Below are positions 11,278 through 36,410 of a stretch of DNA of 64,000 nucleotides, in pieces (positions within the stretch are counted from its first letter, which is position 1; each line of letters begins with the position of its first letter). Source of the DNA: a virus (lineage: Duplodnaviria; Heunggongvirae; Uroviricota; Caudoviricetes); the IMG/VR virus record IMGVR_UViG_3300020581_000009, positions 22,611-86,610 of that record; one strand, given 5' to 3'. Under the pieces are notes generated by a model. That model searched no databases and was not told where the DNA came from. It saw only the letters and a list, made by a program, of their open reading frames with translations. The position numbers and the translations under genes are program-made.

Positions 11278-11340
11278 TCGTTACGTTACGGGTTTCGTTA
11301 CTCATATCGTTACTCATATCGTTACTGTGTGCTCGTAACG
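11262..11340. repeat. cluster of at least 6 CGTTAC direct repeats including a perfect 12-bp tandem TCATATCGTTAC x2
   Basis: tcgttacgttacgggtttcgttactcatatcgttactcatatcgttactgtgtgctcgtaacg; iteron/operator-like, in promoter region of 10951-11277. Confidence 0.6.
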
Positions 11341-18079: not shown

Positions 18080-18363
18080 GCAGCGAGCTTCACCGCACAA
18101 GTACCGCACGCCTGAGAGATAGCCAGCCGGCCGATCTCAGGCGTGCGCGTTCCTGCTTCCACCATAGCGGCGACACGCGGGTCAAACGCACCATACCGAC
18201 GCACAATGGATACAAACTCCGTGACATCGTGGCCTTTCAGGGCGTATTGTGGCGATCCGTCTTTGAGATATTTCGGCTCGCCGTCGCTGTCCAGTGCCAC
18301 GGAACAATGCAAAAGCTCGACTGCCACATTTAACCTGCGAGGACACCATGAACCGGAAAGCAA
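18076..18363 (-). CDS. hypothetical protein (antisense to operon; uncertain)
   Basis: only ORF covering 18080-18347 gap. Confidence 0.2.
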   Translation of the reverse strand: MLSGSWCPRRLNVAVELLHCSVALDSDGEPKYLKDGSPQYALKGHDVTEFVSIVRRYGAFDPRVAAMVEAGTRTPEIGRLAISQACGTCAVKLAA

Positions 18364-24605: not shown

Positions 24606-25454
24606 GTGTCCATGAACAAGCTCACCCCAGAAAAGCGCGCCCAAGCCCTCCAAATGATGGCAGAAGGCATATCCCTGCGGGCCACCACGCGGTTGACCGG
24701 CATTAGTCGGACCACGCTGCTGAAGCTCCTAGAGGATGCCGGGCAGGCGTTCTCCGAATATCAAGACCGCGCGCTTGTTAACCTGCCGTGCAAGCGCATT
24801 CAGGTCGATGAGGCATGGGCTTTTTGCTATGCAAAGCAAAAGAACGTCCCGACCGCGAAGGCTGCCCCTGACGGTGCCGGCGATATCTGGACATGGGTTG
24901 GCATCGATGCCGACACGAAGCTTGTCGCGTCTTGGTATGTCGGCAATCGCGATAGCGAAGCCGCCATGACGTTCATGGACGATCTGGCCCCAAGGCTTGC
25001 TTCCCGCGTTCAACTCACCAGCGACGGCCACAAGCCCTACCTAGAGGCCGTTGAGGGCGCCTTTGGCGGCGATATCGACTTTGCGGTTTTGGTGAAGATT
25101 TACGGTGCGGCCCCGGAAGGCCAGCGCCGCTACAGCCCGGCCATCTGCACCGGAGCGAAAAAGTATCGCGTCGAAGGAAACCCCGATCCGGCGCATGTCA
25201 GTACGTCCTACGTTGAGCGCCAAAACCTGAATATCAGGATGGGCAATCGTCGCATGACGCGACTCACGAATGCCTTTTCAAAGAAGGCCGAAAATCACGC
25301 GCACATGATGGCGATCTACTTCATGCACTACAATTTTGTGCGTATCCATCAGACCTTGAAGGTCACCCCGGCGATGGCCGCTGGCGTCACGCCCAAGCTT
25401 TGGGAAATGGCCGACTTGGTGAAGGTGCTGGAGGATTGGGAAGCCATTCAATGA
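24606..25454 (+). CDS. IS1/IS1595-superfamily DDE transposase
   Basis: N-terminal HTH; C-terminal YVERQNLNIRMGNRRMTRLTNAFSKKAENH..YNFVRIH resembles IS1 InsB ERHNLNLR..RL.R.S.SFSK. Confidence 0.7.
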   Translation: MSMNKLTPEKRAQALQMMAEGISLRATTRLTGISRTTLLKLLEDAGQAFSEYQDRALVNLPCKRIQVDEAWAFCYAKQKNVPTAKAAPDGAGDIWTWVGIDADTKLVASWYVGNRDSEAAMTFMDDLAPRLASRVQLTSDGHKPYLEAVEGAFGGDIDFAVLVKIYGAAPEGQRRYSPAICTGAKKYRVEGNPDPAHVSTSYVERQNLNIRMGNRRMTRLTNAFSKKAENHAHMMAIYFMHYNFVRIHQTLKVTPAMAAGVTPKLWEMADLVKVLEDWEAIQ

Positions 25455-25615: not shown

Positions 25616-25853
25616 AATGGAGTCCGTTATGGGCCGAAAAACTTCGCTAGTTGACCTAATCGCCACGCAAGAACCAGAAACAACTGCGAAAGGTGAAACC
25701 GTAGTGGTGACAGCGCCTGTAATCGTTGCCGGTAGGCCAGACGCTCCCGGTCAAGTTCGTCTAACACTGACGATTGAACAGGCCGAATATCTGGCAGCTC
25801 AGATTCAACCCGTTCTTCGAATAGCTCGCGGAAATGCTCGGCAAAAGAGATAG
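25616..25853 (+). CDS. hypothetical protein (IS cargo)
   Basis: internal ATG of listed ORF 25545-25853. Confidence 0.3.
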
Positions 25854-25885
25854 TCATGTGAGACTTCGCCTTTCAAACTGTACCA

Positions 25886-26224
25886 CTACCGCATGGAGTT
25901 AGACCGGGAGGCTTGCAAGCGATCCCATTGTCTACTGAACCTCTCTGGCCCCGAGCGCGGACCATGGATTTTCGCTCGGTTTCTCCCATTAGGAGCCGGT
26001 CTCCGTGACCGATAAAGCCTTTGAGGACTTCGACCGTCTAACCCCGTGTCAAGGTCTCCTTCAATGGCTTTAACCGCAAGTGCCACAGAATGTGGGATAG
26101 GCGTCTGCCCGGTCACATATCGCCAGATCGTGACCGGGTCGAGGTGTAATGCGCGGGCGAGAGGCGCTTTCCACTTGCGACCGTAAAGCTTCCGCCCGAT
26201 TCGCTCGAACTCAGTAGGCGTCAT
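25886..26224 (-). CDS. HTH (Cro/CI-like) DNA-binding protein, 3' end altered by IS insertion
   Basis: LARALHLDPVTIWRYVTGQTPIP; stop codon lies 5 bp inside IS right IR. Confidence 0.5.
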   Translation of the reverse strand: MTPTEFERIGRKLYGRKWKAPLARALHLDPVTIWRYVTGQTPIPHSVALAVKAIEGDLDTGLDGRSPQRLYRSRRPAPNGRNRAKIHGPRSGPERFSRQWDRLQASRSNSMR

Positions 26225-27801
26225 CCACGTACGAAGTCCGCAATGACGGCCGGCGCCGAAGCGTCAAAGCCCACACAATCCAGCATCCCGGCATCGGTTG
26301 GATCCGCGATCGAGAATCCCGTGCTGGTGAATCCAATCACGACGAGCTTTGCATTGATACCCGTCTTGTTCCGATAGTCCTGCAATGCAATGACCGGGTG
26401 AACTGCGCCCGCCCAACATTCGTTGTCAGTTTGCACGACAAAGGTGTCCACTTTCAGATCGTTACGAAGTGCATACAGCATCGGCAACGAGCAGTCTGTG
26501 CCGCCGCCGTTGATGTCGGACGTTTTCTCCGTGACGGTCGCAAGCGACATCTTGGCTGTGATGCCGAGGTCTCTCATCCCGTGGTCGAAGGCGAGGACAT
26601 GCCAGTTATTTTCGGTTCGCATGGTGACCATCGCCATTGCGGCTGAGGCTTCAGCGACCGTCAGAGACGACCCCATGAACGGAGAGCACATGGAACCAGA
26701 CACATCCAACCCAATTAGGGTACGCTTCCCGGTTGGCTCCACGTTCTGGAACGCCAGATAGAACGCATTGTCCAGCGCGTCGAGGATCGTCGGCACCGGC
26801 TCCCATTTGAGCGCACCTTTCACGCCGTGTCCGCTACGGTAGACTGCCAAAGCTTGGAGCACGTTGAACGGGTGAACACGCGACTTGCGGATTTCCTCCC
26901 CGAGAGACAGGCGGTTTACGACAAGAGCCGTATCGTCACTCAGCGGCTTCAGTGCACCGATGGAAGTCATCTTGCCCAGGTTGCGAATCAGTGCCGTGAG
27001 GCCAAGATTCGGCAGCATGGCGGACCATACCTTGGGATTCGTCGTGGCCTCAGTCGGGATCGCCTCCCATGGGAGGTTGTATTCGCGAATCACGGCAAGA
27101 AGCTCAGACTCGTCATTGGTCTGCATGGCATAACGGTGGGCCTGAAGAATTCCCGGTACACCGAGAGGATCGAAATCCTTCCCGCAGATCCAGTTGTAAA
27201 GCGCCGCCTTCTCCGGAGTTCCGTCAGACTTCGGGTGCGCGCTCTGAAGCATACGCTTATGGGTGTAGTTCTCCCGTGCACGGTATTTGATGGCTTGATA
27301 CGCCAGCTTGTCGGCGCTCTTTGATTCGTACCACCTTGCAACGGCCCGCTTGAGCGTGCGGCCCCATCCACGCTTGAGAGCGCGAACGGTATCAACGAAC
27401 TGGAACAGGTGAGTCGAGGTGCGGCAGACCAGCGGGAGAGCGTTCAGCGCAAGTCTGCGAACGTTGACATCCGCATGAACGGCACCGAGAGCCAGCGCAA
27501 AGATGGCCGGATCATTCTTTGGTGCGCGGCCGGATTCGGAGATATTCACGATAACTGCCACGGTTCGCTCGGCATCCAAGCCGTAGCAGCGCTCGACGCA
27601 CTTCGCGTTCTCGCGGGTGAGTGCCTTGGCGTTCTGATAAAAAGTGTTGGAGTCCGATCCTAGAATCAGGAATCGGTCTAAGCGCGTCCAGTCAGACACG
27701 GCAAAGACGAAGCCCTTCGCGTTGTTGAGGACTTGCCGCTCGTTCAGCGGCTCAGTCTGCGGGATCGGCGCGGTCGCAAGGCGTGCGTATCTGGACATCA
27801 T
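26221..27801 (-). CDS. rsr: Ro60-related protein Rsr (TROVE domain + C-terminal vWA)
   Basis: about 525 aa; vWA MIDAS LIGLDVSGSM in C-terminal third; overall architecture of bacterial Ro60 orthologs; ATG pair at 27801/27798. Confidence 0.75.
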   Translation of the reverse strand: MMSRYARLATAPIPQTEPLNERQVLNNAKGFVFAVSDWTRLDRFLILGSDSNTFYQNAKALTRENAKCVERCYGLDAERTVAVIVNISESGRAPKNDPAIFALALGAVHADVNVRRLALNALPLVCRTSTHLFQFVDTVRALKRGWGRTLKRAVARWYESKSADKLAYQAIKYRARENYTHKRMLQSAHPKSDGTPEKAALYNWICGKDFDPLGVPGILQAHRYAMQTNDESELLAVIREYNLPWEAIPTEATTNPKVWSAMLPNLGLTALIRNLGKMTSIGALKPLSDDTALVVNRLSLGEEIRKSRVHPFNVLQALAVYRSGHGVKGALKWEPVPTILDALDNAFYLAFQNVEPTGKRTLIGLDVSGSMCSPFMGSSLTVAEASAAMAMVTMRTENNWHVLAFDHGMRDLGITAKMSLATVTEKTSDINGGGTDCSLPMLYALRNDLKVDTFVVQTDNECWAGAVHPVIALQDYRNKTGINAKLVVIGFTSTGFSIADPTDAGMLDCVGFDASAPAVIADFVRG

Positions 27802-27810
27802 TCTCTCCTC

Positions 27811-27854
27811 TGCCAATATCGTTAGAGAACACAGGCTCTACAACGATATTGGCA
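27811..27854. promoter_or_regulatory. perfect 13-bp inverted repeat TGCCAATATCGTT-N18-AACGATATTGGCA at rsr start
   Basis: seen directly; operator-like. Confidence 0.5.
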
Positions 27855-27859
27855 GATAG

Positions 27860-28010
27860 ACGGAAACGAATGAGGATCGGTGTTTTGGCGGCTGCTCTAA
27901 CCACTGAGCTATTCTAACTTGCGTCAGAAGTTGGATTCGAACCAACGACCCGCTGCTTATGATAACCGAATACCTCCGGGGCTCGCTTCCTCCTATCTGC
28001 CGTTTAACGA
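27860..28010 (-). ncRNA. tRNA-like fragments, candidate Y RNA-like (YrlA-type) RNA upstream of rsr
   Basis: D-arm-like GCTCTAACCACTGAGC+TA+TTCTAAC (27894-27918) and T-arm-like GTTGGATTCGAACCAAC (27930-27947) that do not assemble into one canonical tRNA. Confidence 0.2.
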
Positions 28011-28249
28011 GCCGAACATAAAGCGGACATGGGGTGTGGTGCCCAAGGGCACCTTCCGTTTCAAGTGGATAACCCACGATCCTGGGGCTCGGCCCCTATT
28101 CATACTGCCCGAACGTAGCGTGGCGAGGATAGCAGTTCTATTGCCAGATAAGCTAACCTCTAGGGCTCGGGCATTGACGAGGTGTATAATATGTGCCATT
28201 ACGTTTTGCAAGAGGAATATCGCGAGGGATAATCGGGCCGTATGGATGA

Positions 28250-28323
28250 TGGCGAAAGTGGAAGGTGTCGAACCCTCGTTTTCGGTTTTGGAGACCGACG
28301 TTCTACCGTTGAACTACACTCCC
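28250..28323 (-). tRNA. tRNA-Trp(CCA)
   Basis: manual fold: TGG+acceptor, T-arm GAAGG-TGTCGAA-CCCTC, anticodon loop CUCCAAA, D-arm GTTC/GAAC. Confidence 0.5.
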
Positions 28324-28324
28324 G

Positions 28325-28396
28325 TACAGACGGGTGGAGTCGAGCCACAACTTGCGCGCGGTTCACAGCCGGCGCCCCAAGCCCTTGGTCGTCTGC
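28325..28396 (-). tRNA. tRNA-like, identity undetermined
   Basis: T-arm GGTGG-AGTCGAG-CCACA and paired acceptor ACAGACG/CGTCTGC; anticodon arm not resolved. Confidence 0.25.
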
Positions 28397-28400
28397 GTAT

Positions 28401-28479
28401 TGGTAGCGGTGGCTGGCTACGATCCAGCGTTCTCCGGTTTATGGGACCGGCGCTTTAGTCCAAGCTAAGCTACACCGCC
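28401..28479 (-). tRNA. tRNA with CAU anticodon (Met or Ile2-type), atypical T-loop AUCGUAG
   Basis: acceptor AGCGGTG/CACCGCC, T-stem GCTGG/CCAGC, anticodon stem CCGGT/ACCGG. Confidence 0.4.
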
Positions 28480-28556
28480 ATATTGGCAACGGGCGTTGAA
28501 AGTCGAATCAACATCCTAAGTTTCAAAGACTTAGTACCTGACCACAGGAACCCGCC

Positions 28557-28799
28557 ATGAGTCGAATTGTCGTATGGAACGAGCCGCTCTGTCTTGATGA
28601 GGGCCATGTGTTAAATTCTGTAGTACGAGCAACCGAGGAAGATATTGTTCACTTGATGCAGCATAATTTCCCAGAAAGAGCTTATTCTTACGACGACGCG
28701 CTGGACGACTTTATGGTAGTCCATTGGGCGTGGTTTGAGGAAGTGGTGCCTCCTGACGGTACCGCCACGCTCACTACGGAACAGCGCCGTGAGAAGTGA
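28557..28799 (+). CDS. hypothetical protein
   Basis: 80-aa ORF between tRNA genes. Confidence 0.35.
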   Translation: MSRIVVWNEPLCLDEGHVLNSVVRATEEDIVHLMQHNFPERAYSYDDALDDFMVVHWAWFEEVVPPDGTATLTTEQRREK

Positions 28800-28818
28800 A
28801 TTAAACCGCGAAACGGTA

Positions 28819-28896
28819 TGGAGCCGCCAGCGGGAATCCAACCCGCGATGTTCGGGAGTGAAGGTCCCGCACCCTTGGCACCCAGGCGATGGCGGC
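28819..28896 (-). tRNA. tRNA-Glu(UUC)-like, T-loop UUGGAUU
   Basis: perfect acceptor GCCGCCA/TGGCGGC; T-stem GCGGG/CCCGC; anticodon stem CGGGA/TCCCG. Confidence 0.4.
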
Positions 28897-28972
28897 AGAT
28901 TTAGGCCCTTGACTTTCTTAACCGTATAGCATATTTCCCGTTTAGCCAATTCCGGCCATACAGGATTATGCT

Positions 28973-29725
28973 ATGACCAAAAAGACCAAAACCGCTGAAA
29001 ATACGCTTGTTACCTTCTTGCTCGACCGCTCCGGATCAATGGGTTCGTGCCGCGAATCAACCATCGAGGCGTTCAACGGCTATATCGAATCCCTCCGCAC
29101 GGCGCCGGTCTCATTCACCTTCCTCCAGTTTGATTCGGAGTCGCTGGATAAGGTCCATTTCGAGAAGCCCATCAAAGATGTCCCGGACCTCAGCATGGCG
29201 ACCTACCAGCCACGGGGCGGAACCCCCCTGATCGAGGCGGCAACCAAGACCATCCAGGCGCTCGAAACCGCCCTCAAGGCCAAGACCGAGAAGCCGAAGG
29301 TCGTCGTCTGCATTCAGACTGACGGCGAGGAGAACCAAAGCGGCCGAGAATATACGTGGCAGGCGCTTAAGGATCTCATCGCAGCCAAGACCGCCGAAGG
29401 CTGGCAGTTCAACTTCATGGGCGCCGGCATCGACGCTTACGACCAAGGATCGAAGATGGGCATCTCGGCGGCGGCAACCATGAGCTACGATAGCACCGAC
29501 AAAGTTGCGACTCGTGCTGCTTTCGCCGCCAGCGGTCACAATACGATGTTGTACGCATCGGGATTTGCTGCATCAACGGATTATTCCGCATTGCAGAAAA
29601 TGGCTTCGGGCGACAAGTTCGATCCCAACCTCAAGATACCCACTCTCAAGCCGGTGAAGGTGTCTTCTTCGGTGAAGCTTGACCTTGGCGGCAAGAAGTC
29701 TAGCGGGCTCGACCTGACACAGTGA
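28973..29725 (+). CDS. von Willebrand factor A domain protein
   Basis: MIDAS motifs DRSGSM, GGTPL, TDGEEN. Confidence 0.75.
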   Translation: MTKKTKTAENTLVTFLLDRSGSMGSCRESTIEAFNGYIESLRTAPVSFTFLQFDSESLDKVHFEKPIKDVPDLSMATYQPRGGTPLIEAATKTIQALETALKAKTEKPKVVVCIQTDGEENQSGREYTWQALKDLIAAKTAEGWQFNFMGAGIDAYDQGSKMGISAAATMSYDSTDKVATRAAFAASGHNTMLYASGFAASTDYSALQKMASGDKFDPNLKIPTLKPVKVSSSVKLDLGGKKSSGLDLTQ

Positions 29726-29991
29726 CCAGACGCGACCGCTACGACTCTGAGTTCGGTGCCTCGGTGAGCCAAGCGCTTGCCGAGGCAAAGATCAATCAGG
29801 CCGAACTCGCCGTGCGATCCGGAATGTCGCCGTCATACCTCAATCAGACCATGACCGGGAGAAAGCATATCCCAACCAAGTGGATCGACGTTGTTGCGGA
29901 ATCTCTCGGTCTACAAGATGCACAGCGAAAGCGGCTGCACCTCGCCGCCGCAAAGGATGCCGGGTACGATATCGACTTGACGAAGGAATGA
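29722..29991 (+). CDS. XRE-family HTH protein
   Basis: INQAELAVRSGMSPSYLNQTMTGRK; GTGA overlap with vWA gene. Confidence 0.55.
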   Translation: MTRRDRYDSEFGASVSQALAEAKINQAELAVRSGMSPSYLNQTMTGRKHIPTKWIDVVAESLGLQDAQRKRLHLAAAKDAGYDIDLTKE

Positions 29992-30066
29992 TGGAGCGGA
30001 GTGAGAGAATCAGACTCTCGTCTTTGGTTTGGAAGACCACTGCTCTGTCATTGAGCTAACCCCGCG

Positions 30067-30154
30067 TGGCGGAAGCAGGAGGATTTGAACCTCCGGTACC
30101 GTTAGGTACTTCGGTTTAGCAAACCGATGCAATAGGCCACTCTGCCATGCTTCC
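30067..30154 (-). tRNA. tRNA-Ser(GCU)
   Basis: perfect acceptor GGAAGCA/TGCTTCC, T-arm GGAGG-ATTTGAA-CCTCC, long variable arm, anticodon loop UUGCUAA; CCA encoded. Confidence 0.6.
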
Positions 30155-30159
30155 GTTAG

Positions 30160-30236
30160 TGGCGATCCCGGCAAGACTCTAACTTGCGACAACCGGTTTA
30201 GGAAACCAGTGCTCTATACATCTGAGCTACGGGACC
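30160..30236 (-). tRNA. tRNA-Arg(CCU)
   Basis: acceptor GATCCCG/CGGGACC, T-stem GCAAG/CTTGC, anticodon loop UUCCUAA; unusual T-loop UUAGAGU. Confidence 0.45.
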
Positions 30237-30241
30237 GTGAT

Positions 30242-30317
30242 TGGAGACCCAGGCGTGAATCGAACACGCGACCTCTTGCTTAGAAGGCAAAGACTCTTTC
30301 CACTGAGTTACTGGGCC
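30242..30317 (-). tRNA. tRNA-Arg(UCU)
   Basis: acceptor GACCCAG/CTGGGCC, T-arm GCGTG-AATCGAA-CACGC, anticodon loop CUUCUAA, D-arm ACTC/GAGT. Confidence 0.55.
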
Positions 30318-30318
30318 G

Positions 30319-30567
30319 TTACCAAAAGTAGTTATGCGGCTTCTTGCTAACCGGCCAAGTCGCGTTGTCCGCGTCGATCTTGCCCAGCAAAACCGCTCTA
30401 GTCGTCTCCATGGCGCGGCGACGATGCGGTCTACGGTGAAACACGATGTCCCACCACGCAGGCCAGTTGTTCAGCCAGCGATACTCGTTGCCAAACTCTT
30501 TTGCACGCCATTTGTCGAAGCGATTGCCGCGCACTCTCGTCCGCGACCGCTTGCGTTTGTGGTTCAT
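30319..30567 (-). CDS. hypothetical highly basic small protein
   Basis: MNHKRKRSRTRVRGNRFDKWRAKEF...; upstream structured region. Confidence 0.25.
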   Translation of the reverse strand: MNHKRKRSRTRVRGNRFDKWRAKEFGNEYRWLNNWPAWWDIVFHRRPHRRRAMETTRAVLLGKIDADNATWPVSKKPHNYFW

Positions 30568-30829
30568 GACACCTTAGCTCCATGTTGGTCACTAACGTGT
30601 CATGGTCGGATCCTTTCAAGGGTTGGAGTAGCAGGCCGGTGCCTACCCGGCTCAATAGCGGTTTTGCAGACCGCCGCGTTCACGTTTCGCCACTGCTACG
30701 TTAAGGCTCGGCCAAGGGTCCCTTCGGTCTTTTCCCCGGCTGGGGTAAAGCACTAGGCGTTTCCGGTTTCCCTATGCGCGCCACGCCACGGCGCCGGCTC
30801 TGCCTGGGTGGTTGATAGCATATCGTGAA

Positions 30830-30905
30830 TGGCAGGGGAAGAGAGGATCGAACTCCCGACATCGGCGTCCAGAGCGCCGCGCTACTACCGCTGAGCTATT
30901 CCCCA
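30830..30905 (-). tRNA. tRNA-Gln(CUG)
   Basis: T-arm GAGAG-GATCGAA-CTCCC, perfect anticodon stem CGGCG/CGCCG, loop CUCUGGA. Confidence 0.5.
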
Positions 30906-30912
30906 TCAAAGA

Positions 30913-30987
30913 TGGTCGGGGCACGGCGATTCGAACGCCGGACCTCACGCTTCCAAAGCGCGAACTCTACCGCTGAGCTATACCCCG
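30913..30987 (-). tRNA. tRNA-Pro(UGG)
   Basis: T-arm CGGCG-ATTCGAA-CGCCG, acceptor CGGGGCA/TACCCCG, anticodon loop UUUGGAA. Confidence 0.6.
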
Positions 30988-31299
30988 TTGATTCCGTCTA
31001 AATTATGTGAGACACTAACCGCGTCCAAATCTCTATCTCAAACGCAAGGAGTACACGCCCCAAAAACGCACCGCAAGTCCTAGTCAGGGCGGCCGGGCGC
31101 GAACCACGTCCGGCCGCAATAATGTGGCGATCCCGGCAAGAGGGCTACCGAAATGAGCAACAAGATTACTACCGGACCAGAAATTGCGTTGGCGCTTGCG
31201 ATGCGGGCTGGACTGGAAGGCGTTGCCTTCTCCCAGGTGTCTATGGGACACTGGACCCCAGAGTTTTATGCAGAGAGATGTCGCGTCATTAAGGATAAA

Positions 31300-31376
31300 T
31301 GGCGACCCACCGAGGAATCGAACCCCGAACCATCAGATTCGTAGTCTGGCGCTCTGTCCATTTGAGCTAGTGGGCC
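31300..31376 (-). tRNA. tRNA-Arg(ACG)
   Basis: acceptor GACCCAC/GTGGGCC, T-loop AATCGAA, D-arm GCTC/GAGC, anticodon loop CUACGAA. Confidence 0.5.
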
Positions 31377-31380
31377 GTAA

Positions 31381-31458
31381 TGGTACGGTCGGCGGGCTAC
31401 GATCCCGCGTTTCCCGGATGAGGGCCGGGGTTCCTTGTCCGATCTAGAAGACGACCGC
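31381..31458 (-). tRNA. tRNA with CUC anticodon (Glu-type), atypical T-loop AUCGUAG
   Basis: homologous in T-arm and D-loop to 28401-28479; anticodon stem CCCGG/CCGGG. Confidence 0.35.
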
Positions 31459-31465
31459 GTAAATG

Positions 31466-31549
31466 CTGAAGGGGCAGGATTCGAACCTGCGACGGGCTTT
31501 CGCCAACTGATTAACAATCAGACCCCTGCTACCGCTCGGGTACCCTCCA
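31466..31549 (-). tRNA. class II (long variable arm) tRNA, identity undetermined
   Basis: canonical T-arm GCAGG-ATTCGAA-CCTGC, acceptor TGAAGGG/CCCTCCA, 3-bp D-stem CCC/GGG. Confidence 0.35.
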
Positions 31550-31558
31550 TCGCATTTG

Positions 31559-31630
31559 TGGTGGAGAAACGGAGAGTTGAACTCCGGACGGCAGCCGTGC
31601 AAAGGGTGCCTGTGGCCCGCCACTTTCCCC
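31559..31630 (-). tRNA. tRNA-like, identity undetermined
   Basis: TGG, acceptor GGAGAAA/TTTCCCC, T-arm CGGAG-AGTTGAA-CTCCG. Confidence 0.3.
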
Positions 31631-31757
31631 GAATCAAACAGCCGACCGGTGCTGCGAGACACCGGCCGGCTTGGAAAGCCAATCGAGTTTACCTGCGCCG
31701 GCTTGTTCCGTAGCCGTGACCGTATTGGAACAGCAGGATTGCCCGAAAGGCTACTCT

Positions 31758-32080
31758 TTACGCCGGGTTGGCGGTAGTCGCCGTGGTGAGGTCGGACGTG
31801 GCCTTCTCGACCTTCGCCGCCAGGGCATCAACTGCCGGCTGGATGTCCGCTGGTGCCGCTGCCTTGAGGGCTGCGATGTCGGCGGAAAGTCCCGTCAGAT
31901 CCGTTACAGCCGCAGCAACAGCGGCGGTGAGTGCATCAACGTCAGTGGTAAGCTTGCTGAGATCAGCCATGATGGTGTCAACCTTTCGAGTGAGAGCGTG
32001 CAATAGGGCATTGTTGCGGGTGGCGTAGAACTCGATACGCTCAAGCCTCGCGTCGTCTACGTCTGTACCGAACCATCCCA
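31758..32080 (-). CDS. hypothetical coiled-coil protein
   Basis: Ala/Thr/Asp-rich heptad-like repeats; internal Met start. Confidence 0.35.
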
Positions 32081-32562
32081 TGGGGTTATATACTCGCTTT
32101 TTGTGACGGTTGCAAGACGCGAAATGGTGCCTCGGCGCCGTTTCGAGCGGCGATCTTCCGTGCTTCAAACGGACGTGTGGAACCACCATCACCACCGAGG
32201 CGAGCAGCATCCCGGTAACGATCCGGGTCCTACACGTTGGCAACGTGTCGTGCTACCTTTAGCACCAATGCTGCATATTGGTCGGCAACCCGCGAATCGA
32301 ACGCGGCATGTCAAAGACGCAGGTTTTACAGACCCGCTCAGTCACCAGACTTGGCGTTGCCGTAAGTATGCACGGGGCCGTAGTGTCCTCACCACCGTAC
32401 CGTGCCGCCATCGTTATCCCTGATGGCTCGGGAAAAGTGCGTCGGCTTGTACTCCGTCGCGTGCGCCGATTTACATCCGATCTGGCGCAGAATTTAGCGG
32501 CCGGTCTGAGGTCTAGCCTCAGTCCCTCGCCCCGGCCGGCGAGGTACGACGCGCGTCGTAGG

Positions 32563-32835
32563 TCATTCTGGCCACACTCCTAATCCCATGTCCTGAAGCC
32601 CTTGAAGTAACTCGGCCTCGGTCATGTAAGATGGCGGTGAAGTGTGGGCCTGATCCACATGCCTTTGCGGGGCACCAGCGGGTTTCGAATCCGTGTCAGG
32701 GGCCTCCCTGATTACTTCACCAATCTCTCCTTGGCAGCAATAATCAAATCTATGGCCGCCGCAGGTAAGGCAGGGAAGGACCGCGCCGTTTAGGCGCAGC
32801 ATAGTCCCCATGCCATGGCATGTTTCGCAAATCAT
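32563..32835 (-). CDS. hypothetical Cys-rich small protein
   Basis: CETCHGMG...CLTCGG; ATGA overlap with HNH gene. Confidence 0.35.
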   Translation of the reverse strand: MICETCHGMGTMLRLNGAVLPCLTCGGHRFDYCCQGEIGEVIREAPDTDSKPAGAPQRHVDQAHTSPPSYMTEAELLQGLQDMGLGVWPE

Positions 32836-33323
32836 GGGTTAACCCATCCCCAAATATTCCCACGCCGAATCAACGACACTGTAGCGTGATGCACGCCAAA
32901 TAATTCTGCTATTTCTGTATTCATCTTGCCGTCTTTAATTAGTGATTTGATGACAACAACTTGAGACTGGAGCAATTTGCTGCGTGGATTTTTTTCTCCG
33001 TTCTGAAAACTATTATTCAAGCTTGCCCGACCCTTAGCATATGCTTCAAGTATATTGTCGCTACAGGTTCCCTCGCGCAGGTGCTCTGGATTGATGCAAG
33101 GCGGATTATCGCATGAATGAAGAACCATAAGGCTAACATCATCGACAGAAATGCCGCGATTGACGGCGTAAGAAACTCTATGGGTCAAGTAGTCTTTCCC
33201 ACCAAACTTTATCTTTCCGTAGCCGCTTTTGTTTCTACCTCCCGACCATTCCCAGCAGCCATTGGGAGCAATAGCGATCTTGGAGGCGAGATAGGTTCTG
33301 AGGTCTTTAATCTTTCTTGGCAT
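32832..33323 (-). CDS. HNH homing endonuclease with C-terminal HTH
   Basis: GYGKI...HRVSY...HSCDNPPCINPEHL HNH_3-type; TEIAELFGVHHATVSLIRRG HTH. Confidence 0.7.
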   Translation of the reverse strand: MPRKIKDLRTYLASKIAIAPNGCWEWSGGRNKSGYGKIKFGGKDYLTHRVSYAVNRGISVDDVSLMVLHSCDNPPCINPEHLREGTCSDNILEAYAKGRASLNNSFQNGEKNPRSKLLQSQVVVIKSLIKDGKMNTEIAELFGVHHATVSLIRRGNIWGWVNP

Positions 33324-33339
33324 GAAACCTCATATTATC

Positions 33340-33427
33340 TGGCGGAACCGAGGTGATTCGAACACCTGATACCTTGCGGTATGCCGCCTTTCCAGGGCGG
33401 TGCCTTCAGCCTCTCGGCCACGGTTCC
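33340..33427 (-). tRNA. tRNA-Ser(GGA)
   Basis: perfect acceptor GGAACCG/CGGTTCC, T-arm AGGTG-ATTCGAA-CACCT, variable-arm hairpin ATACC/GGTAT, anticodon loop CUGGAAA. Confidence 0.6.
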
Positions 33428-33466
33428 TTTGATTCGCAGAGTATCAGTTTGTGCCTCGCAGTCAAG

Positions 33467-33550
33467 TGGCGGAGAGCGATGGAGTCGAGCCATCAACCTT
33501 GCGGTTGGCCTGGGTTTCAGGTCCAGTTCGCGCCCCGCGCGCCGCTCTCC
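33467..33550 (-). tRNA. tRNA-Ser(UGA)-like (class II)
   Basis: perfect acceptor GGAGAGC/GCTCTCC, T-stem GATGG/CCATC, anticodon stem CTGGG/TCCAG. Confidence 0.45.
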
Positions 33551-33554
33551 CTAT

Positions 33555-33629
33555 TGGCGACCTCCGCAGGATTCGAACCTGCATCCTCAAGATTCGGAAT
33601 CTTGTGCTCATCCATTGAGCTAGGAGGCC
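33555..33629 (-). tRNA. tRNA-Arg(CCG)
   Basis: T-arm GCAGG-ATTCGAA-CCTGC, anticodon arm CAAGA-TTCGGAA-TCTTG, D-arm GCTC/GAGC. Confidence 0.6.
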
Positions 33630-33871
33630 TTTGACTGAGAGCGACCCAGCGGCGCTTTTTGTGGTACGCCGCATTCCGTGTTGACGGTAACCAACACCCA
33701 GCGCAATGCTGTCCCCCTGATCCAGCCACGAACCTCTACTTCTAATCTCTTCTCAGCTTCGCATCTCGTCTCTGGCAACGGTGGCTCAAAATCAGTGCGG
33801 ACCCATTCAGAGTCGGTGTGTGAATTGCGATATTCGTACTCGAAATGTCTTCCGGCGATCTCGCGCATATG

Positions 33872-34249
33872 CTATGCTCCGTGCTGCTCGAAAAATCGTG
33901 ATCTGAACGGCTGGTCCGCCCTAGTAGCCCGATTCGGATAGTATGCACCCATTCCCGATGTCCAGGCAATCAAACTGTCGTCAGCCAGGATGACTTTGTC
34001 CATTGCCCGCGTCATAGCCAACGCAAGGTTGTAAGTGTCAGGACTGCACGGATTGATGTATAACACCCAGATGTCGATGGGGACCGTGATCGGGATTTTG
34101 ATCGCTGCCGCCTTAAAGGCCTCCACAAGCGCCTCCCGGTACTTCTGGATGACCTTATAATGCTGCCGGTAGTGCGGAGCCCCATGGATGTATAACCGAA
34201 GCCTGGGCAACGGCTCGTCGGATGGATGGTATTCTGCGATGATGCGCAT
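33872..34249 (-). CDS. RusA-like Holliday junction resolvase
   Basis: DTYNLALAMTRAMDKVILADDSLI resembles RusA D.DN..K...DAL....DD motif. Confidence 0.45.
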   Translation of the reverse strand: MRIIAEYHPSDEPLPRLRLYIHGAPHYRQHYKVIQKYREALVEAFKAAAIKIPITVPIDIWVLYINPCSPDTYNLALAMTRAMDKVILADDSLIAWTSGMGAYYPNRATRADQPFRSRFFEQHGA

Positions 34250-34268
34250 GGTCGTATCCTATCATGGG

Positions 34269-34358
34269 GTGGTCGGCGCTACGTGGATCGAACACGTCCG
34301 TCTACGGTAATCAGCCGCTCCGGGTTTATAAGGCCCAGCCGCACCCAGTGCTAGCGCC
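34269..34358 (-). tRNA. class II tRNA (90 nt), identity undetermined
   Basis: perfect acceptor CGGCGCT/AGCGCCG, T-arm ACGTG-GATCGAA-CACGT, variable hairpin CCG/CGG. Confidence 0.35.
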
Positions 34359-34386
34359 GCTCTGAAAAACGTGATACCAATATTAG

Positions 34387-34782
34387 ATGCACAACCAAGA
34401 AAATGACGACTGGTTTTTGGCCGCAGTCTCTAGCGGTCACATTTCAGTATCCGAAGATGGGAAAGTTTTTAACCACAAGACCAATAGATACATTGGCGCA
34501 GTTGGCAGCGGTAGATATCCAAAAATTTCTCTCTCTGTTGGGCGAAAAGAAATTCGCCATATGCAAATACACCGTCTAGTGTGGTTGGTTTATCGTGGTA
34601 AAATTTCACAAGAAGTTGAAATTAACCATAAGGATACCAACACCAACAATCCATCTCTGCTAAACCTTGAATTAATTACCCCTAGCGGCAATAGATTGCA
34701 CGCTATTGCAAACGGCCGTCCCGGATATCTTTTCCAAAAAGGAAACAAATCATCACGCAAAACGAAAGTCATTGACAAATAA
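34387..34782 (+). CDS. HNH homing endonuclease (AT-rich gene within tRNA array)
   Basis: INHKDTNTNNPSLLNLELITPSGNRLH; local GC clearly lower than surroundings. Confidence 0.6.
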   Translation: MHNQENDDWFLAAVSSGHISVSEDGKVFNHKTNRYIGAVGSGRYPKISLSVGRKEIRHMQIHRLVWLVYRGKISQEVEINHKDTNTNNPSLLNLELITPSGNRLHAIANGRPGYLFQKGNKSSRKTKVIDK

Positions 34783-34786
34783 AAAG

Positions 34787-34863
34787 TGGTCGGCGCGGCA
34801 GGCTTCGATCCTGCGACAACCCGGCTCCGGACCGGGGACTCTACCAGACTGAGCTACGCGCCG
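34787..34863 (-). tRNA. tRNA-Pro(CGG)
   Basis: perfect acceptor CGGCGCG/CGCGCCG, anticodon stem CCCGG/CCGGG, loop UCCGGAG; T-loop AUCGAAG. Confidence 0.55.
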
Positions 34864-34867
34864 TAAG

Positions 34868-34941
34868 TGGCGGTCCTAGGGGGTATCGATCCCCCGTCGA
34901 TCGGTTGACAACCGAGTACTCTACCTTTGAGCTATAGGACC
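34868..34941 (-). tRNA. tRNA-Asp(GUC)
   Basis: perfect acceptor GGTCCTA/TAGGACC, T-stem GGGGG/CCCCC, anticodon loop UUGUCAA. Confidence 0.55.
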
Positions 34942-34942
34942 G

Positions 34943-35021
34943 TATGGCCGGGGAGAATCGAACTCCCATGGTTTCCCACGGCGACCTCAACGCCGCGCGT
35001 CTGCCGTTCCGCCACAGCCAC
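34943..35021 (-). tRNA. tRNA-Leu(GAG)-like
   Basis: T-arm GGGAG-AATCGAA-CTCCC, 11-nt variable arm, anticodon stem CGGCG/CGCCG loop UUGAGGU, 3-bp D-stem GCG/CGC. Confidence 0.45.
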
Positions 35022-35029
35022 GTAAAACT

Positions 35030-35104
35030 TGGAGGGTGCTAGGTGAATCGAACACCTGACAAGAGGGTTAAGAAGCCTCTGTTCTTCCACTGAACTAAGC
35101 ACCC
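35030..35104 (-). tRNA. tRNA-Lys(CUU)
   Basis: perfect acceptor GGGTGCT/AGCACCC, T-arm AGGTG-AATCGAA-CACCT, D-arm GTTC/GAAC. Confidence 0.5.
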
Positions 35105-35365
35105 GAGGATTCCGGAAGTTCTGCCCTTCTTGCGACGCGGGTTAAAAAGCCGGCCCAGAGACTACTCTGATTTACGCTCGGAATCCGAATGGACCCCGAA
35201 CCGTTTAAGTGGATCGCTCATGTTGTTTACTCCATATTGGTGCAAGCGGGAGGTACTGCCCCTCCTATCAGACGCTCATCAGGCGCCGTCTTCGCTTCTC
35301 AGACTCGCTTGCGGTGAAATGGTGCTTCCGATACCTTGGAGAGGCATGACCTTCGCCATGTCGCG

Positions 35366-35438
35366 GCGACGGTGAGGGTCACGATCCCCCGACATCCTGC
35401 GTGTAAAACAGGCGCTCTCCCAACTGAGCTAACCGCCC
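35366..35438 (-). tRNA. tRNA-Val(UAC)-like, T-loop AUCGUGA
   Basis: D-arm GCTC/GAGC, anticodon loop UUUACAC, acceptor with 1-72 mismatch. Confidence 0.4.
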
Positions 35439-35444
35439 ATGAAG

Positions 35445-35522
35445 TGGTGCCGCAGGCGGGTGACGATCACGCGCGGAACCGTTTTTAGGACGGATCCCTC
35501 TGCCAACCTGGGGTACTGCGGC
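35445..35522 (-). tRNA. tRNA with UAA anticodon (Leu codon UUA) but class I architecture, T-loop AUCGUCA
   Basis: perfect acceptor GCCGCAG/CTGCGGC; only about 5-nt variable region. Confidence 0.4.
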
Positions 35523-35526
35523 GTAT

Positions 35527-35604
35527 TGGTGCCCAACCGGGAGATCGAATCCCGACACACCGGATTTTGAATCCAGTCGCTTTGCCTGTTTTGCGTAGTT
35601 GGGC
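35527..35604 (-). tRNA. tRNA with CAA anticodon (Leu) but short variable region
   Basis: perfect acceptor GCCCAAC/GTTGGGC, T-arm CGGGA-GATCGAA-TCCCG; anticodon stem imperfect. Confidence 0.35.
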
Positions 35605-35609
35605 GTGAG

Positions 35610-35687
35610 TGGTAGCCGACCCCGGTCTCGAACCGGGACTGGACGGAGTCTGGATCCGTTCCCTCTTCCAAATTGGGGTAGTCGGCC
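35610..35687 (-). tRNA. tRNA with CAG anticodon (Leu) but short variable region
   Basis: T-arm CCCGG-TCTCGAA-CCGGG, perfect anticodon stem ACGGA/TCCGT, acceptor AGCCGAC/GTCGGCC. Confidence 0.4.
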
Positions 35688-35693
35688 GTTGAA

Positions 35694-35766
35694 TGGTGCC
35701 ACCAGCAGGTTCGAATCTGCATCCCCCTCATTACCAGTGAAGGACTCTACTTTGAGCTATGGCGGC
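35694..35766 (-). tRNA. tRNA-Thr(GGU)-like
   Basis: acceptor GCCACCA/TGGCGGC, D-arm like the Asp tRNA; T-loop appears 6 nt. Confidence 0.35.
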
Positions 35767-35771
35767 AAACT

Positions 35772-35846
35772 TGGTTCCGAGTAGACGAATCGAACGCCTG
35801 CACCCAGTTTACAAAACTGGACCTCTGCCACTGAGGATAACCCGGA
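35772..35846 (-). tRNA. tRNA-Thr(UGU)
   Basis: T-loop AATCGAA, perfect anticodon stem CCAGT/ACTGG loop UUUGUAA, D-arm CCTC/GAGG. Confidence 0.5.
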
Positions 35847-36410
35847 TCAAAGAGTCTTCGCGGGGCGGGGCACGACTGCCGCTGTTTTTCTCGCTGGGCG
35901 AAACGTGGCTTGGGGCGCGTGGCGACCCACCGCGAATTGGAGCCATCAGGTTGATTTGAACAACCATTGCCACCGTACGAAGGGGGTCTCCTACCATTGG
36001 AGGATGACGGCGTTAAAATGAACAAACCGGGCGGACCATTACGATCCGCCCGAATTTCATGATGTCCCCAGCGCGCACAGTTAAGCCGCTTCTCCGACGC
36101 GGAGGAGATAGTGGTCGTCCCGCCTGAGGGGGCCACTATATCTCAATCACCGACTTCCCCTGATTGGTAGCAGGGGCGACTAAATATGCACTCAACAGCA
36201 CAAAAAACGCCATAATGCGCTCTTGAGTGTATATCTGCTTGGGTCTTTGGTGGTGGTTTTGGGCCTCCTCTTCCGCTTTTCGCGGGGGTCAGCCGCCGAA
36301 TCAACTTGGTAGTTTTTGCCTGAATTCGGGCTGCATATGCACGCTATACGACCGCCAGGAGCTATTCGGCCCGGCGGCGATGGTCGTATCTGTGGCACGC
36401 ACTATCGAGT

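What the first reader, a model, noticed from the sequence alone, without database searches (positions are those of the whole stretch)
26221..28010. Phage-borne Ro60 ortholog (Rsr) with a perfect 13-bp palindromic operator and adjacent tRNA-like fragments (candidate Y RNA)
The 26221-27801 product has the TROVE plus C-terminal vWA (LIGLDVSGSM) architecture of bacterial Ro60. Bacterial and phage rsr genes are typically accompanied by Y RNA-like (YrlA) non-coding RNAs that mimic tRNA. Immediately upstream of rsr there is a perfect inverted repeat TGCCAATATCGTT-N18-AACGATATTGGCA overlapping the start. Next come sequence pieces that look like a tRNA D-arm+acceptor (27894-27918) and T-arm (27930-27947) but do not assemble into a canonical tRNA. 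This is as expected for a YrlA-type tRNA-like module rather than a tRNA.
Basis: partly seen in the sequence, partly recalled or inferred. Interest (0 to 1): 0.7.

Follow-up and report, generated by a model that had tools for sequence, protein, structure and literature searches.

The report
Phage Ro60 gene with Y-RNA array
A phage carries a Ro60 (Rsr) gene preceded by four small Y-RNA-like genes, one of which mimics tRNA; the supposed "operator" palindrome is the stem of the fourth, so this is a well-supported but ordinary example of a known RNA-protein system.

Summary
The minus-strand ORF 27801..26221 is a full-length Ro60/Rsr (Pfam vWA_Ro60 9e-66, TROVE 9e-42; PDB Rsr 2NVO 1e-122). The window is phage DNA.

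The tRNA-like pieces belong to one 151-nt YrlA-type Y RNA (28001..27851, minus). Its order is basal stem, UUAUC, T-arm, closed acceptor-like hairpin, D-arm. Rfam YrlA matches only the tRNA-like core (30.7 bits; gathering score 69). A model built from 12 relatives matches full length (79.8 bits, E 1e-18). In a 14-sequence alignment, 22 of 33 pairs show compensatory changes.

The operator reading fails. In the closest relative (Rsr 93% identical) the same arms enclose a 128-nt Y RNA with a T-arm. The window has lost 80 internal nucleotides, leaving a 48-nt hairpin (27856..27809) that keeps the family's GAGC/GUUC helix and abuts the rsr Shine-Dalgarno.

The same model gives 176 hits near rsr in 87 other phage and bacterial loci, all on the rsr strand.

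Y RNAs beside phage Ro60 are already published. This is a new member of a known kind. RNA expression and Rsr binding are inferred, not shown.

The parts
26221..27801 (-). rsr: Ro60 ortholog of 526 aa (alternative start ATG 27798; the mechanical TTG is at 27816)
   Evidence: Pfam vWA_Ro60 9.2e-66 and TROVE 9.4e-42. phrog_850 RNA-binding protein 1.3e-80. PDB 2NVO Rsr 9.8e-123 and 1YVP Xenopus Ro60 7.8e-122. 7999 homologs at E<=1e-30, the best 93% identical.
27805..27810 (-). Shine-Dalgarno GAGGAG of rsr, directly 3' of the hairpin
   Evidence: Read from the sequence. Identical in L081.
27809..27856 (-). It is the basal stem of a fourth Y RNA whose 80-nt interior is deleted. It keeps the GAGC/GUUC helix and has a CUGU loop.
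   Evidence: Arms. MFE -29.1 kcal/mol, z -8.5. The alignment with L081 shows the same arms enclosing a 128-nt Y RNA with a T-arm, and two fully compensatory arm changes. Stem covariation across 8 relatives: 89% paired against 34-45% when slid. Not recognised by model R1.
27851..28001 (-). Y3: YrlA-type Y RNA of 151 nt. Basal stem 28001-27983 / 27869-27851; GAGC 27984-27981; UUAUC 27965-27961; T-arm 27946-27930; acceptor-like hairpin 27929-27912; D-arm 27909-27894.
   Evidence: Rfam YrlA 30.7 bits, E 1.3e-4, model positions 24-84. Basal-stem inverted repeat I2. MFE -62 kcal/mol, z -5.5. Model R2, built without the window, 79.8 bits, E 1.2e-18, full length. Covariation.
28006..28098 (-). Y2: short Y-like RNA (GAGCC, internal loop, second helix, UUAUC, inner hairpin, GUUC)
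   Evidence: Model R1 (18 modules from relatives only) 43.1 bits, E 3e-9. MFE -38.7 kcal/mol. Ortholog in L081 at 597-684.
28103..28176 (-). Y1: short Y-like RNA with the same architecture
   Evidence: Model R1 37.6 bits, E 8.4e-8. Y1 and Y2 are the only two R1 hits in 64 kb on both strands. MFE -28.2 kcal/mol, z -3.6. Ortholog in L081 at 518-592.
28183..28211 (-). Possible promoter for the Y array and rsr: TTGCAA (28211-28206), 17 nt, TATACA (28188-28183). Weak and inferred.
   Evidence: Read from the sequence. The block is conserved with L081, where the upstream genes are on the other strand. The consensus scan did not report it on this strand.
28250..28323 (-). tRNA-Trp, the last gene of a same-strand array of 28-29 tRNA genes (28250-36011) that leads into the Y array
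   Evidence: ARAGORN; Rfam tRNA.
25886..26224 (-). Small ORF of 112 aa whose start overlaps the rsr stop by 4 nt. Possibly co-translated; function unknown.
   Evidence: ORF list. phrog_3626, unknown function, 6e-10. No Pfam match.

Best explanation
This is a phage-borne Ro60 ribonucleoprotein cassette. Reading the minus strand, a long tRNA array is followed by four Y-RNA modules and then rsr. Y1 and Y2 are short. Y3 is a YrlA-type tRNA mimic. Y4 is reduced to a hairpin.

Each intact module has the same protein-binding end. A basal stem ends in an invariant GAGC/GYUC helix that contains a G.U pair. Next come an asymmetric internal loop (CC-N2-3 on the 5' side, about 7-9 nt on the 3' side), a second helix, and UUAUC. 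A variable effector domain follows.

In Y3 the effector domain is a circularly permuted tRNA, read as T-arm, closed acceptor stem, then D-arm. The U8-A9 equivalents, G18-G19, the T-loop UUCGAAU and a possible G15:C48 pair are all in place.

Inferred steps: the RNAs are cut from a common transcript by host RNases. Rsr binds the GAGCC end. The effector domains engage host factors such as PNPase or tRNA-handling enzymes, as in RYPER-type complexes.

It is the roughly 20-bp basal stem of the rsr-proximal Y RNA, whose interior this phage has lost. [quoted passage not shown] It may still act as a processing or stabilising stem for the rsr mRNA, or as a minimal Rsr ligand.
For: Protein.

Phage context.

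Y3: partial Rfam YrlA hit. All 7 close relatives have the same sub-threshold YrlA hit directly upstream of rsr on the same strand, at 32-42 bits. The independent model R2 gives 79.8 bits, E 1e-18, full length; the next-best hits are at most 31.7 bits and are tRNA-tRNA junctions. RNAalifold predicts 33 pairs, 22 with compensatory changes. 96.7% of cells are paired, against 29-45% when slid; 0 of 500 shuffles reach this.

Y1 and Y2: the only two R1 hits in the window.

Family: 108 R1 hits in 46 of 81 viral rsr loci and 68 hits in 41 of 80 bacterial rsr loci. All 176 are on the rsr strand and lie upstream or downstream of rsr.

Y4: collinear alignment with L081 shows an 80-nt internal deletion and compensatory arm changes. 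L081's Y4 folds at -71.7 kcal/mol, z -8.3. The long stem covaries across 8 loci.

Precedent: YrlA lies within 4 kb of Ro60 on the same strand in 254 bacteria and 22 phages. M. smegmatis YrlB lies between YrlA and rsr, has a T-arm and shares a precursor with YrlA. [quoted passage not shown] Thermus phage phiLo Ro60 binds two upstream Yrl RNAs and host PNPase (PMC12135203).
Against: There is no expression or binding data for any of these RNAs. Y3 reaches less than half of Rfam's gathering score. The published Ro-binding motif GNCGAAN0-1G is not present: Y3 has GCCCCGG, Y2 GCCCCAGG and Y1 GCCCUAG. Rsr binding to this variant is therefore assumed by position, not shown. Y4 gets no score from model R1 because it lacks the second helix and UUAUC. 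No similar mini-hairpin was found next to rsr in other loci, although that screen demanded six contiguous pairs and did not recover the window's own hairpin, so it is weak evidence. Y4 may thus be a dead remnant. The promoter is weak and was not found by the consensus scan on the minus strand.
Confidence: 0.85

Rival explanations
1. The palindrome is a DNA operator bound by a dimeric repressor that controls rsr transcription.
For: There are perfect 13-bp arms immediately upstream of rsr. An HTH repressor-like ORF exists nearby at 29722-29991.
Against: The half-site occurs nowhere else in 64 kb beyond chance: 18 matches at up to 3 mismatches, against 16 expected. The 18 nt between the arms are themselves self-complementary, so the whole element is a 21-bp hairpin. 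In L081 the orthologous arms are about 88 nt apart and flank a structured Y-like RNA. Arm substitutions are compensatory across 8 loci, whereas a protein-read sequence would be conserved. No promoter-like site lies between the palindrome and the start codon.
Confidence: 0.04
2. The tRNA-like pieces are decayed tRNA genes, or a junction of two tRNA genes at the end of the tRNA array, and not a Y RNA.
For: They lie at the end of a 28-gene tRNA array. Junctions between adjacent tRNAs do give weak hits to the YrlA-type model: 17.9-31.7 bits inside the array. Chen et al. warn about this artefact (PMC4201824).
Against: No tRNA model hit at E<=10 on either side. The T-arm and D-arm are joined by a closed 7-bp hairpin with a GCAA loop. 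The whole unit is enclosed by a 19-nt basal stem. The same architecture with compensatory changes recurs directly upstream of rsr in relatives, including L081, where the upstream genes are on the opposite strand and no tRNA hit lies upstream of the Y array. The window's hit scores 48 bits above the best junction artefact.
Confidence: 0.02
3. The modules are not free-standing Y RNAs. They are cis-acting leader structures of the rsr mRNA: Rsr binds its own leader, the Y4 stem next to the Shine-Dalgarno in particular, and feeds back on its translation or stability. This is partly compatible with the main explanation.
For: The modules are contiguous with rsr on the same strand, with no predicted terminator on that strand. 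The last stem ends at the Shine-Dalgarno. The long stem before rsr is conserved even where its cargo differs, and here even where the cargo is lost.
Against: In several loci the modules lie downstream of rsr instead: L010, L016, L133 and L155. This fits independent RNAs better than a leader. Characterised Y RNAs from the same genomic position are processed, stable RNAs (PMC4201824). Y4 lacks the second helix and UUAUC that are conserved in every intact module.
Confidence: 0.1

Closest known systems
YrlA (Rfam RF02553; Chen et al. 2014, PMC4201824; structure preprint 10.1101/312249)
   Same: Y3 is encoded within 4 kb of Ro60 on the same strand; here it lies about 50 nt upstream. The 5' and 3' ends pair to form the Ro-binding end. 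YUAY (UUAU) opens the V region. Nearly invariant T and D stem-loops are separated by a covarying acceptor-like hairpin, in T-AS-D order.
   Different: It scores 30.7 bits against a gathering score of 69. The GNCGAAN0-1G motif is replaced by GAGCC-CCGG. A relative, L008, has the exact GCCGAAUG at the same position. There is no V hairpin. The basal stem is much longer (19 nt arms). It sits at the end of a phage tRNA array.
YrlB / Yrn2-type Y RNAs (S. Typhimurium YrlB, M. smegmatis YrlB, D. radiodurans Yrn2; PMC4201824)
   Same: These are additional Y RNAs next to YrlA and rsr. M. smegmatis YrlB lies between YrlA and rsr and carries a T-arm, as L081's fourth module does. [quoted passage not shown]
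   Different: Y4 is demonstrably a deletion derivative. Y1 and Y2 have a distinct conserved design (GAGCC, loop, second helix, UUAUC) that matched no Rfam family even at E<=10.
Thermus phage phiLo Ro60 with Yrl1 and Yrl2 (PMC12135203)
   Same: A phage-encoded Ro60 with several Y-like RNAs directly upstream. The stem, bulge, stem design of the RNAs is the same. That study showed binding to the phage Ro60 and a ternary complex with host PNPase.
   Different: The phiLo RNAs were identified by a CGAA motif, which is absent here. There are two RNAs rather than four modules. The phiLo protein did not appear among the PDB sequence matches at E<=1e-5, so it is a distant relative.
Ro60/Rsr proteins (D. 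radiodurans Rsr 2NVO, X. laevis Ro60 1YVP, human RO60 9NEN)
   Same: Full-length colinear match covering residues 11-526, with the TROVE HEAT-repeat ring plus a vWA domain carrying the MIDAS motif DVSGS.
   Different: Nothing notable. The closest cellular homologs are alphaproteobacterial, at 58-60% identity.

Membership tests
Ro60 / Rsr (TROVE + vWA) | TROVE (HEAT-repeat ring) domain | tested here: met
   PF05731, 9.4e-42, above the curated cut-off.
Ro60 / Rsr (TROVE + vWA) | C-terminal Ro60-type vWA domain with the MIDAS motif DxSxS | tested here: met
   PF25045, 9.2e-66, residues 365-529. DVSGS is present in the translation.
Ro60 / Rsr (TROVE + vWA) | Full-length similarity to structurally defined Ro60 proteins | tested here: met
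   2NVO 9.8e-123, 1YVP 7.8e-122 and 9NEN 2.7e-121, covering residues 11-526.
YrlA (RF02553) | Encoded within 4 kb of the Ro60 gene on the same strand | tested here: met
   Y3 occupies 28001..27851 and rsr starts at 27801, both on the minus strand.
YrlA (RF02553) | Nearly invariant T and D stem-loops in the order T, acceptor-like hairpin, D | tested here: met
   The Rfam alignment covers model positions 24-84. T, AS and D helices are 99-100% paired across 14 sequences, and all 6 AS pairs covary.
YrlA (RF02553) | YUAY at the start of the V region | tested here: met
   UUAUC at 27965-27961. The column is nearly invariant in alignments A3 and A4.
YrlA (RF02553) | 5' motif GNCGAAN0-1G (the proposed Ro60 contact) | tested here: not met
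   Y3 has GCCCCGG at the homologous position, differing at 3 of 6 specified bases. The relative L008 has GCCGAAUG there.
YrlA (RF02553) | Rfam gathering score (69 bits) | tested here: not met
   30.7 bits in a local match. The 7 closest relatives also score only 32-42 bits.
YrlA (RF02553) | Not an artefact of two adjacent tRNA genes | tested here: met
   No tRNA call overlaps it. It scores 79.8 bits, against at most 31.7 bits for junctions in the array.
YrlA (RF02553) | Bound by Rsr; carries tRNA-type modifications (pseudouridine 55, dihydrouridine) | not testable with these tools
   This needs immunoprecipitation and modification mapping.
Long-hairpin Y RNAs (YrlB / Yrn2 type) | [quoted passage not shown] | tested here: met
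   Y4 has 16 + 5 bp and a CUGU loop, and lies between Y3 and rsr. The description is from PMC4201824.
Long-hairpin Y RNAs (YrlB / Yrn2 type) | Carries the Ro-binding motif and is bound by Rsr | tested here: inconclusive
   Y4 keeps the GAGCC/UGUGUUC end but lacks the second helix and UUAUC. It gets no R1 score. Binding is not testable here.
Palindromic repressor operator | Half-sites at a fixed short spacing, conserved in sequence and usually repeated in the genome | tested here: not met
   The half-site is unique in the window. The arms are about 88 nt apart in L081. The arms covary rather than being conserved.
Intrinsic terminator | G+C-rich hairpin followed by a U tract | tested here: not met
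   The hairpin is followed by GGAGAGAAUGAUG. No minus-strand terminator was predicted in 25800-29000.

The most novel reading that the evidence does not exclude
The short modules Y1 and Y2 may represent a widespread family of minimal Y RNAs that no library has curated. Their design is GAGCC, internal loop, second helix, UUAUC, GUUC. They form arrays of up to about six beside rsr in both phages and bacteria. The window's clade has also swapped the canonical CGAA Ro-contact for CCCA/CCCG, which would imply co-evolution with its Rsr. The Y4 hairpin, a Y RNA stripped to its basal stem and placed against the rsr Shine-Dalgarno, could be a minimal Rsr ligand that acts as an RNA-level autoregulatory site or an RNase III processing site for rsr.
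Probability: 0.15. Interest if true: 0.5.

Novelty: new member of a known kind. Interest (0 to 1): 0.35.

Why it matters
Ro60 with Y RNAs is a conserved RNA-surveillance system, and what phages use it for is still unclear. This locus adds a well-delimited case from a phage that probably infects an alphaproteobacterium. It has three intact Y RNAs and one naturally truncated one. The variant Ro-binding motif and the natural stem-only derivative could help define the minimal Rsr-binding element. The two covariance models built here recover many Y RNAs that Rfam's YrlA threshold misses, including in the seven close relatives tested. That is of practical use for annotation. None of this changes the current picture of the system.

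Tried and rejected
- Rfam at gathering thresholds over the whole window found only tRNAs. The YrlA match appeared only in a permissive scan of 721 nt.
- A viral-contig scan with the single protein found nothing. It worked only with an alignment of homologs.
- blastn against GenBank phages found no close relative. It gave only 67-73% identity over parts of rsr, in Streptomyces and Microbacterium phages annotated as Ro-like.
- A search for further copies of the palindrome half-site gave chance level.
- My first stem-based module finder, which required at least 7 outer pairs, missed Y1-Y3. I replaced it with motif-anchored extraction and covariance models.
- Model R1 does not recognise the Y4 hairpin, and scores Y3 only weakly (11.7 bits) because of Y3's 113-nt interior.
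- A screen for other mini-hairpins with a GAGC...GYUC loop next to rsr in 81 loci found none on the rsr strand just upstream. The screen needed six contiguous pairs and missed the window's own hairpin, so it is weak evidence that Y4 is lineage-specific.
- Inverted repeat 28098-28112 / 28233-28247 is not conserved in L081. I did not interpret it.
- Two reviews on bacterial Y RNAs (PMC10870794, PMC6047535) are not held in the library.
- A literature search for a curated rsr-associated RNA motif other than YrlA found nothing.
- I did not run structure prediction for Rsr, because the sequence match to solved structures is already decisive.
Full report
**1. The observation**

The minus-strand ORF ends at 26221. 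Its mechanical start is a TTG at 27816. The sequence GAGGAG-AGA-ATG-ATG puts the real start at 27801 or 27798, behind a Shine-Dalgarno at 27810-27805. Homolog N-termini (consensus xxKYAxL) fit this.

The 13-nt arms TGCCAATATCGTT (27811-27823) and AACGATATTGGCA (27842-27854) are exact and 18 nt apart. They extend to 20-nt arms at 27809-27828 and 27837-27856. This is the longest hairpin-type inverted repeat in the window.

On the minus strand the T-arm is 27946..27930, a 7-bp hairpin with a GCAA loop is 27929..27912, and the D-arm is 27909..27894. Neither ARAGORN nor the Rfam tRNA model calls a tRNA there.

**2. The protein and the setting**

The product matches Pfam vWA_Ro60 (9.2e-66) and TROVE (9.4e-42). 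It matches the solved structures of D. radiodurans Rsr, Xenopus Ro60 and human RO60 at about 1e-122 over its full length. Thousands of homologs exist. The best is 93% identical and comes from a JGI metagenome; the next group is about 60-66% identical and includes alphaproteobacteria such as Bradyrhizobium.

The window is phage DNA. It encodes a large terminase, helicase, primase, Erf-type annealing protein, exonucleases and HNH endonucleases. No close relative exists among GenBank phages.

All 28 ARAGORN tRNA genes (28250-36011) are on the same strand as rsr and upstream of it.

**3. The tRNA-like fragments belong to one YrlA-type Y RNA (Y3)**

A permissive Rfam scan of 27700-28420 gives one relevant hit: YrlA (RF02553) on the minus strand at 27953..27891. 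It scores 30.7 bits with E 1.3e-4 and covers model positions 24-84, which is the T/AS/D core. This is below the gathering score of 69.

A 19-nt inverted repeat (28001-27983 with 27869-27851) closes the module into a 151-nt RNA. Its MFE is -62 kcal/mol with z = -5.5.

I fetched 80 viral loci encoding relatives of this Rsr, plus the contig of the 93%-identical protein (L081). All seven close loci tested have the same kind of sub-threshold YrlA hit (32-42 bits) directly upstream of rsr on the same strand.

An alignment of 14 such modules, including the window's, gives an RNAalifold consensus of 33 pairs. Of these, 22 are kept through changes on both sides. 96.7% of cells are paired, against 29-45% when the 3' partners are slid by 1-3 columns. 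None of 500 shuffles reach the observed values.

A covariance model built from 12 relatives, without the window or L081, matches the window at 28002..27850 over its full length with 79.8 bits and E 1.2e-18. The next hits score at most 31.7 bits. They are junctions between adjacent tRNA genes, an artefact Chen et al. describe (PMC4201824).

By inspection, the module is a circularly permuted tRNA:
- The T-stem stacks directly on the 5' strand of the closed acceptor-like stem.
- UA (the U8-A9 equivalents) precedes the D-stem.
- G18-G19, the T-loop UUCGAAU and a C before the T-stem (allowing G15:C48) are present.
- A 4-bp GCGG/CCGC helix takes the place of the anticodon stem and leads into the Ro-binding end.

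**4. Two more Y-like RNAs (Y1, Y2)**

In the relatives, the space between YrlA and rsr, and sometimes the space after rsr, holds tandem modules of one design. The design is: basal stem, invariant GAGC paired to GYUC with a G.U pair, CC plus 2-3 nt, a second helix, UUAUC, a variable interior, the return strand of the second helix, 7-9 nt, then GYUC.

I aligned 18 short modules from relatives only. RNAalifold shows the four outer pairs of the basal stem changing on both sides in 4-9 sequences each, with none broken.

The model built from this alignment (R1) finds exactly two matches in the whole 64-kb window on both strands. They are 28098..28006 (43.1 bits, E 3e-9) and 28176..28103 (37.6 bits, E 8.4e-8), both on the minus strand. 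With filters off it also touches Y3 (11.7 bits, E 0.005 in 601 nt).

Across the other loci, R1 gives 108 hits in 46 of 81 viral loci and 68 hits in 41 of 80 bacterial rsr loci. All 176 are on the rsr strand and adjacent to rsr. The arrangement is therefore general for rsr loci and not a peculiarity of this phage.

The Y1/Y2 stretch matched no Rfam family, even at E<=10.

**5. The palindrome is the stem of a fourth Y RNA (Y4)**

The window and L081 are collinear from Y1 to the rsr start. In L081 the same arms (UGCCAAUAACGCUGGAGAGC ... GUUCUCCAGCGUUAUUGGCA) enclose a 128-nt RNA. That RNA has GAGCC, a second helix, UUACC, a T-arm (GGUUCGACUCC) and two further hairpins. It folds at -71.7 kcal/mol with z = -8.3.

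The window lacks exactly the 80 internal nucleotides and keeps GAGC-CUGU-GUUC.

Between the two sequences the arms differ by two fully compensatory changes (U-A to A-U, and U-A to C-G). The window's single U/C mismatch is a G-C pair in L081.

A T-arm-bearing long module with a basal stem of about 20 bp is the rsr-proximal unit in other relatives as well, both phage and bacterial. Over 8 sequences the 22-pair stem is 89% paired, against 34-45% when slid, and 14 pairs change on both sides. The window's state is therefore a deletion and not the ancestral form.

The half-site is not repeated elsewhere in the window beyond chance. No U tract follows the hairpin. Both the operator reading and the terminator reading fail.

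[quoted passage not shown] Its position, between YrlA and rsr, is that of M. smegmatis YrlB, which also has a T-arm (PMC4201824).

Whether Y4 still binds Rsr is open. It lacks the second helix and UUAUC, and R1 does not score it. The conservation of a 20-bp stem right before the rsr ribosome-binding site suggests the stem has a role of its own, such as processing by RNase III or protection of the rsr mRNA 5' end. This is inference.

**6. How it most likely works**

Shown here:
- the identity of the protein;
- the family membership and conserved structure of Y1-Y3;
- the orthology of Y4's arms to a Y RNA stem;
- the strict co-orientation of these modules with rsr.

Inferred from the characterised systems (D. 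radiodurans, S. Typhimurium and M. smegmatis in PMC4201824; phage phiLo in PMC12135203):
- the RNAs are processed from a common transcript with rsr;
- Rsr binds the GAGCC end;
- the effector domains tether Rsr to host factors such as PNPase, or engage tRNA-handling enzymes.

A weak promoter-like block lies on the minus strand: TTGCAA, 17 nt, then TATACA, at 28211-28183. It is conserved with L081, where the upstream genes are on the other strand. It would start transcription at about the 5' end of Y1. The consensus scan did not report it.

**7. Comparison with the known and novelty**

Y RNAs of the YrlA type next to Ro60 were reported in 254 bacteria and 22 phages in 2014. Two Y-like RNAs upstream of a phage Ro60 were shown to bind it in 2025. 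This locus is a further member.

It differs in four respects:
- Its Rfam score is below threshold.
- The proposed Ro contact GNCGAAN0-1G is replaced by GCC-CC(A)GG. A 55%-identical relative, L008, has the exact GCCGAAUG at the same place.
- The array has four modules.
- A natural stem-only derivative sits at the rsr ribosome-binding site.

I rate it a new member of a known kind, with interest 0.35.

Noticed in passing
window 28250-36011 (minus strand): An array of 28 tRNA genes by ARAGORN, all on the rsr strand. Rfam adds one more at 29995-30065 that ARAGORN did not call. The array is interrupted by small ORFs, including an HNH endonuclease at 32832-33323. Several relatives also carry tRNA arrays beside rsr.
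   Followed up: partly
window 24606-25454 (+): An ORF of 282 aa with an N-terminal HTH and a partial IS1-type DDE transposase match (PF03400, 6.5e-6). It lies about 770 nt beyond the 3' end of rsr inside a phage genome.
   Followed up: no
window 28973-29991 (+): A vWA-domain protein (PF00092 2.4e-5; phrog_7371 6e-41) followed by an overlapping HTH repressor-like ORF. Both are on the opposite strand, inserted between tRNA genes.
   Followed up: no
window 27851-27856, with 27996-28001 and 27809-27814: UCUGCC is shared by the 3' end of Y3's basal stem and the 5' arm of the Y4 hairpin, and GGCAGA occurs at both partner sites. The outer 6 bp of the two stems are therefore mutually exclusive. The arrangement is identical in L081, and neighbouring modules in L001 also share stem nucleotides.
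   Followed up: partly
window 28098-28112 and 28233-28247: A 15-nt inverted repeat, 87% complementary, that would enclose Y1 and the putative promoter. It is not conserved in L081. Unexplained.
   Followed up: partly
loci L001, L003, L005, L006, L008, L010 and L077 (short Y modules, alignment A3): The loop after UUAUC in many short modules contains a recurring AUGAUGA / AAUGAU-like motif. Its role is unknown.
   Followed up: no
loci L001 3844-3976, L002 3855-3976, L006 3584-3697, L008 3787-3895, L081 834-961: A second class of long Y modules. A T-arm follows UUAUC directly, then two hairpins, one of them a degenerate D-arm. These are usually the unit nearest to rsr.
   Followed up: partly
window 45497-45565 and 18105-18147: Two perfect inverted repeats: 15-nt arms 39 nt apart, and 13-nt arms 17 nt apart.
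   Followed up: no
window 11299-11323 (+): The 13-mer TACTCATATCGTT occurs twice at 11299-11311 and 11311-11323, the two copies sharing one base. It was seen while searching for palindrome half-sites.
   Followed up: no
window 25886-26224 (minus strand): A 112-aa ORF whose start overlaps the rsr stop by 4 nt. It matches phrog_3626 (unknown function) and is not found after rsr in L081.
   Followed up: partly
loci L007 (IMG/VR) and L083 (Bradyrhizobium sp. C9): The Y-module hits have the same scores and the same offsets from rsr in the two loci. The viral contig is therefore probably a prophage or region of a Bradyrhizobium genome, which hints at an alphaproteobacterial host range for this clade.
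   Followed up: no
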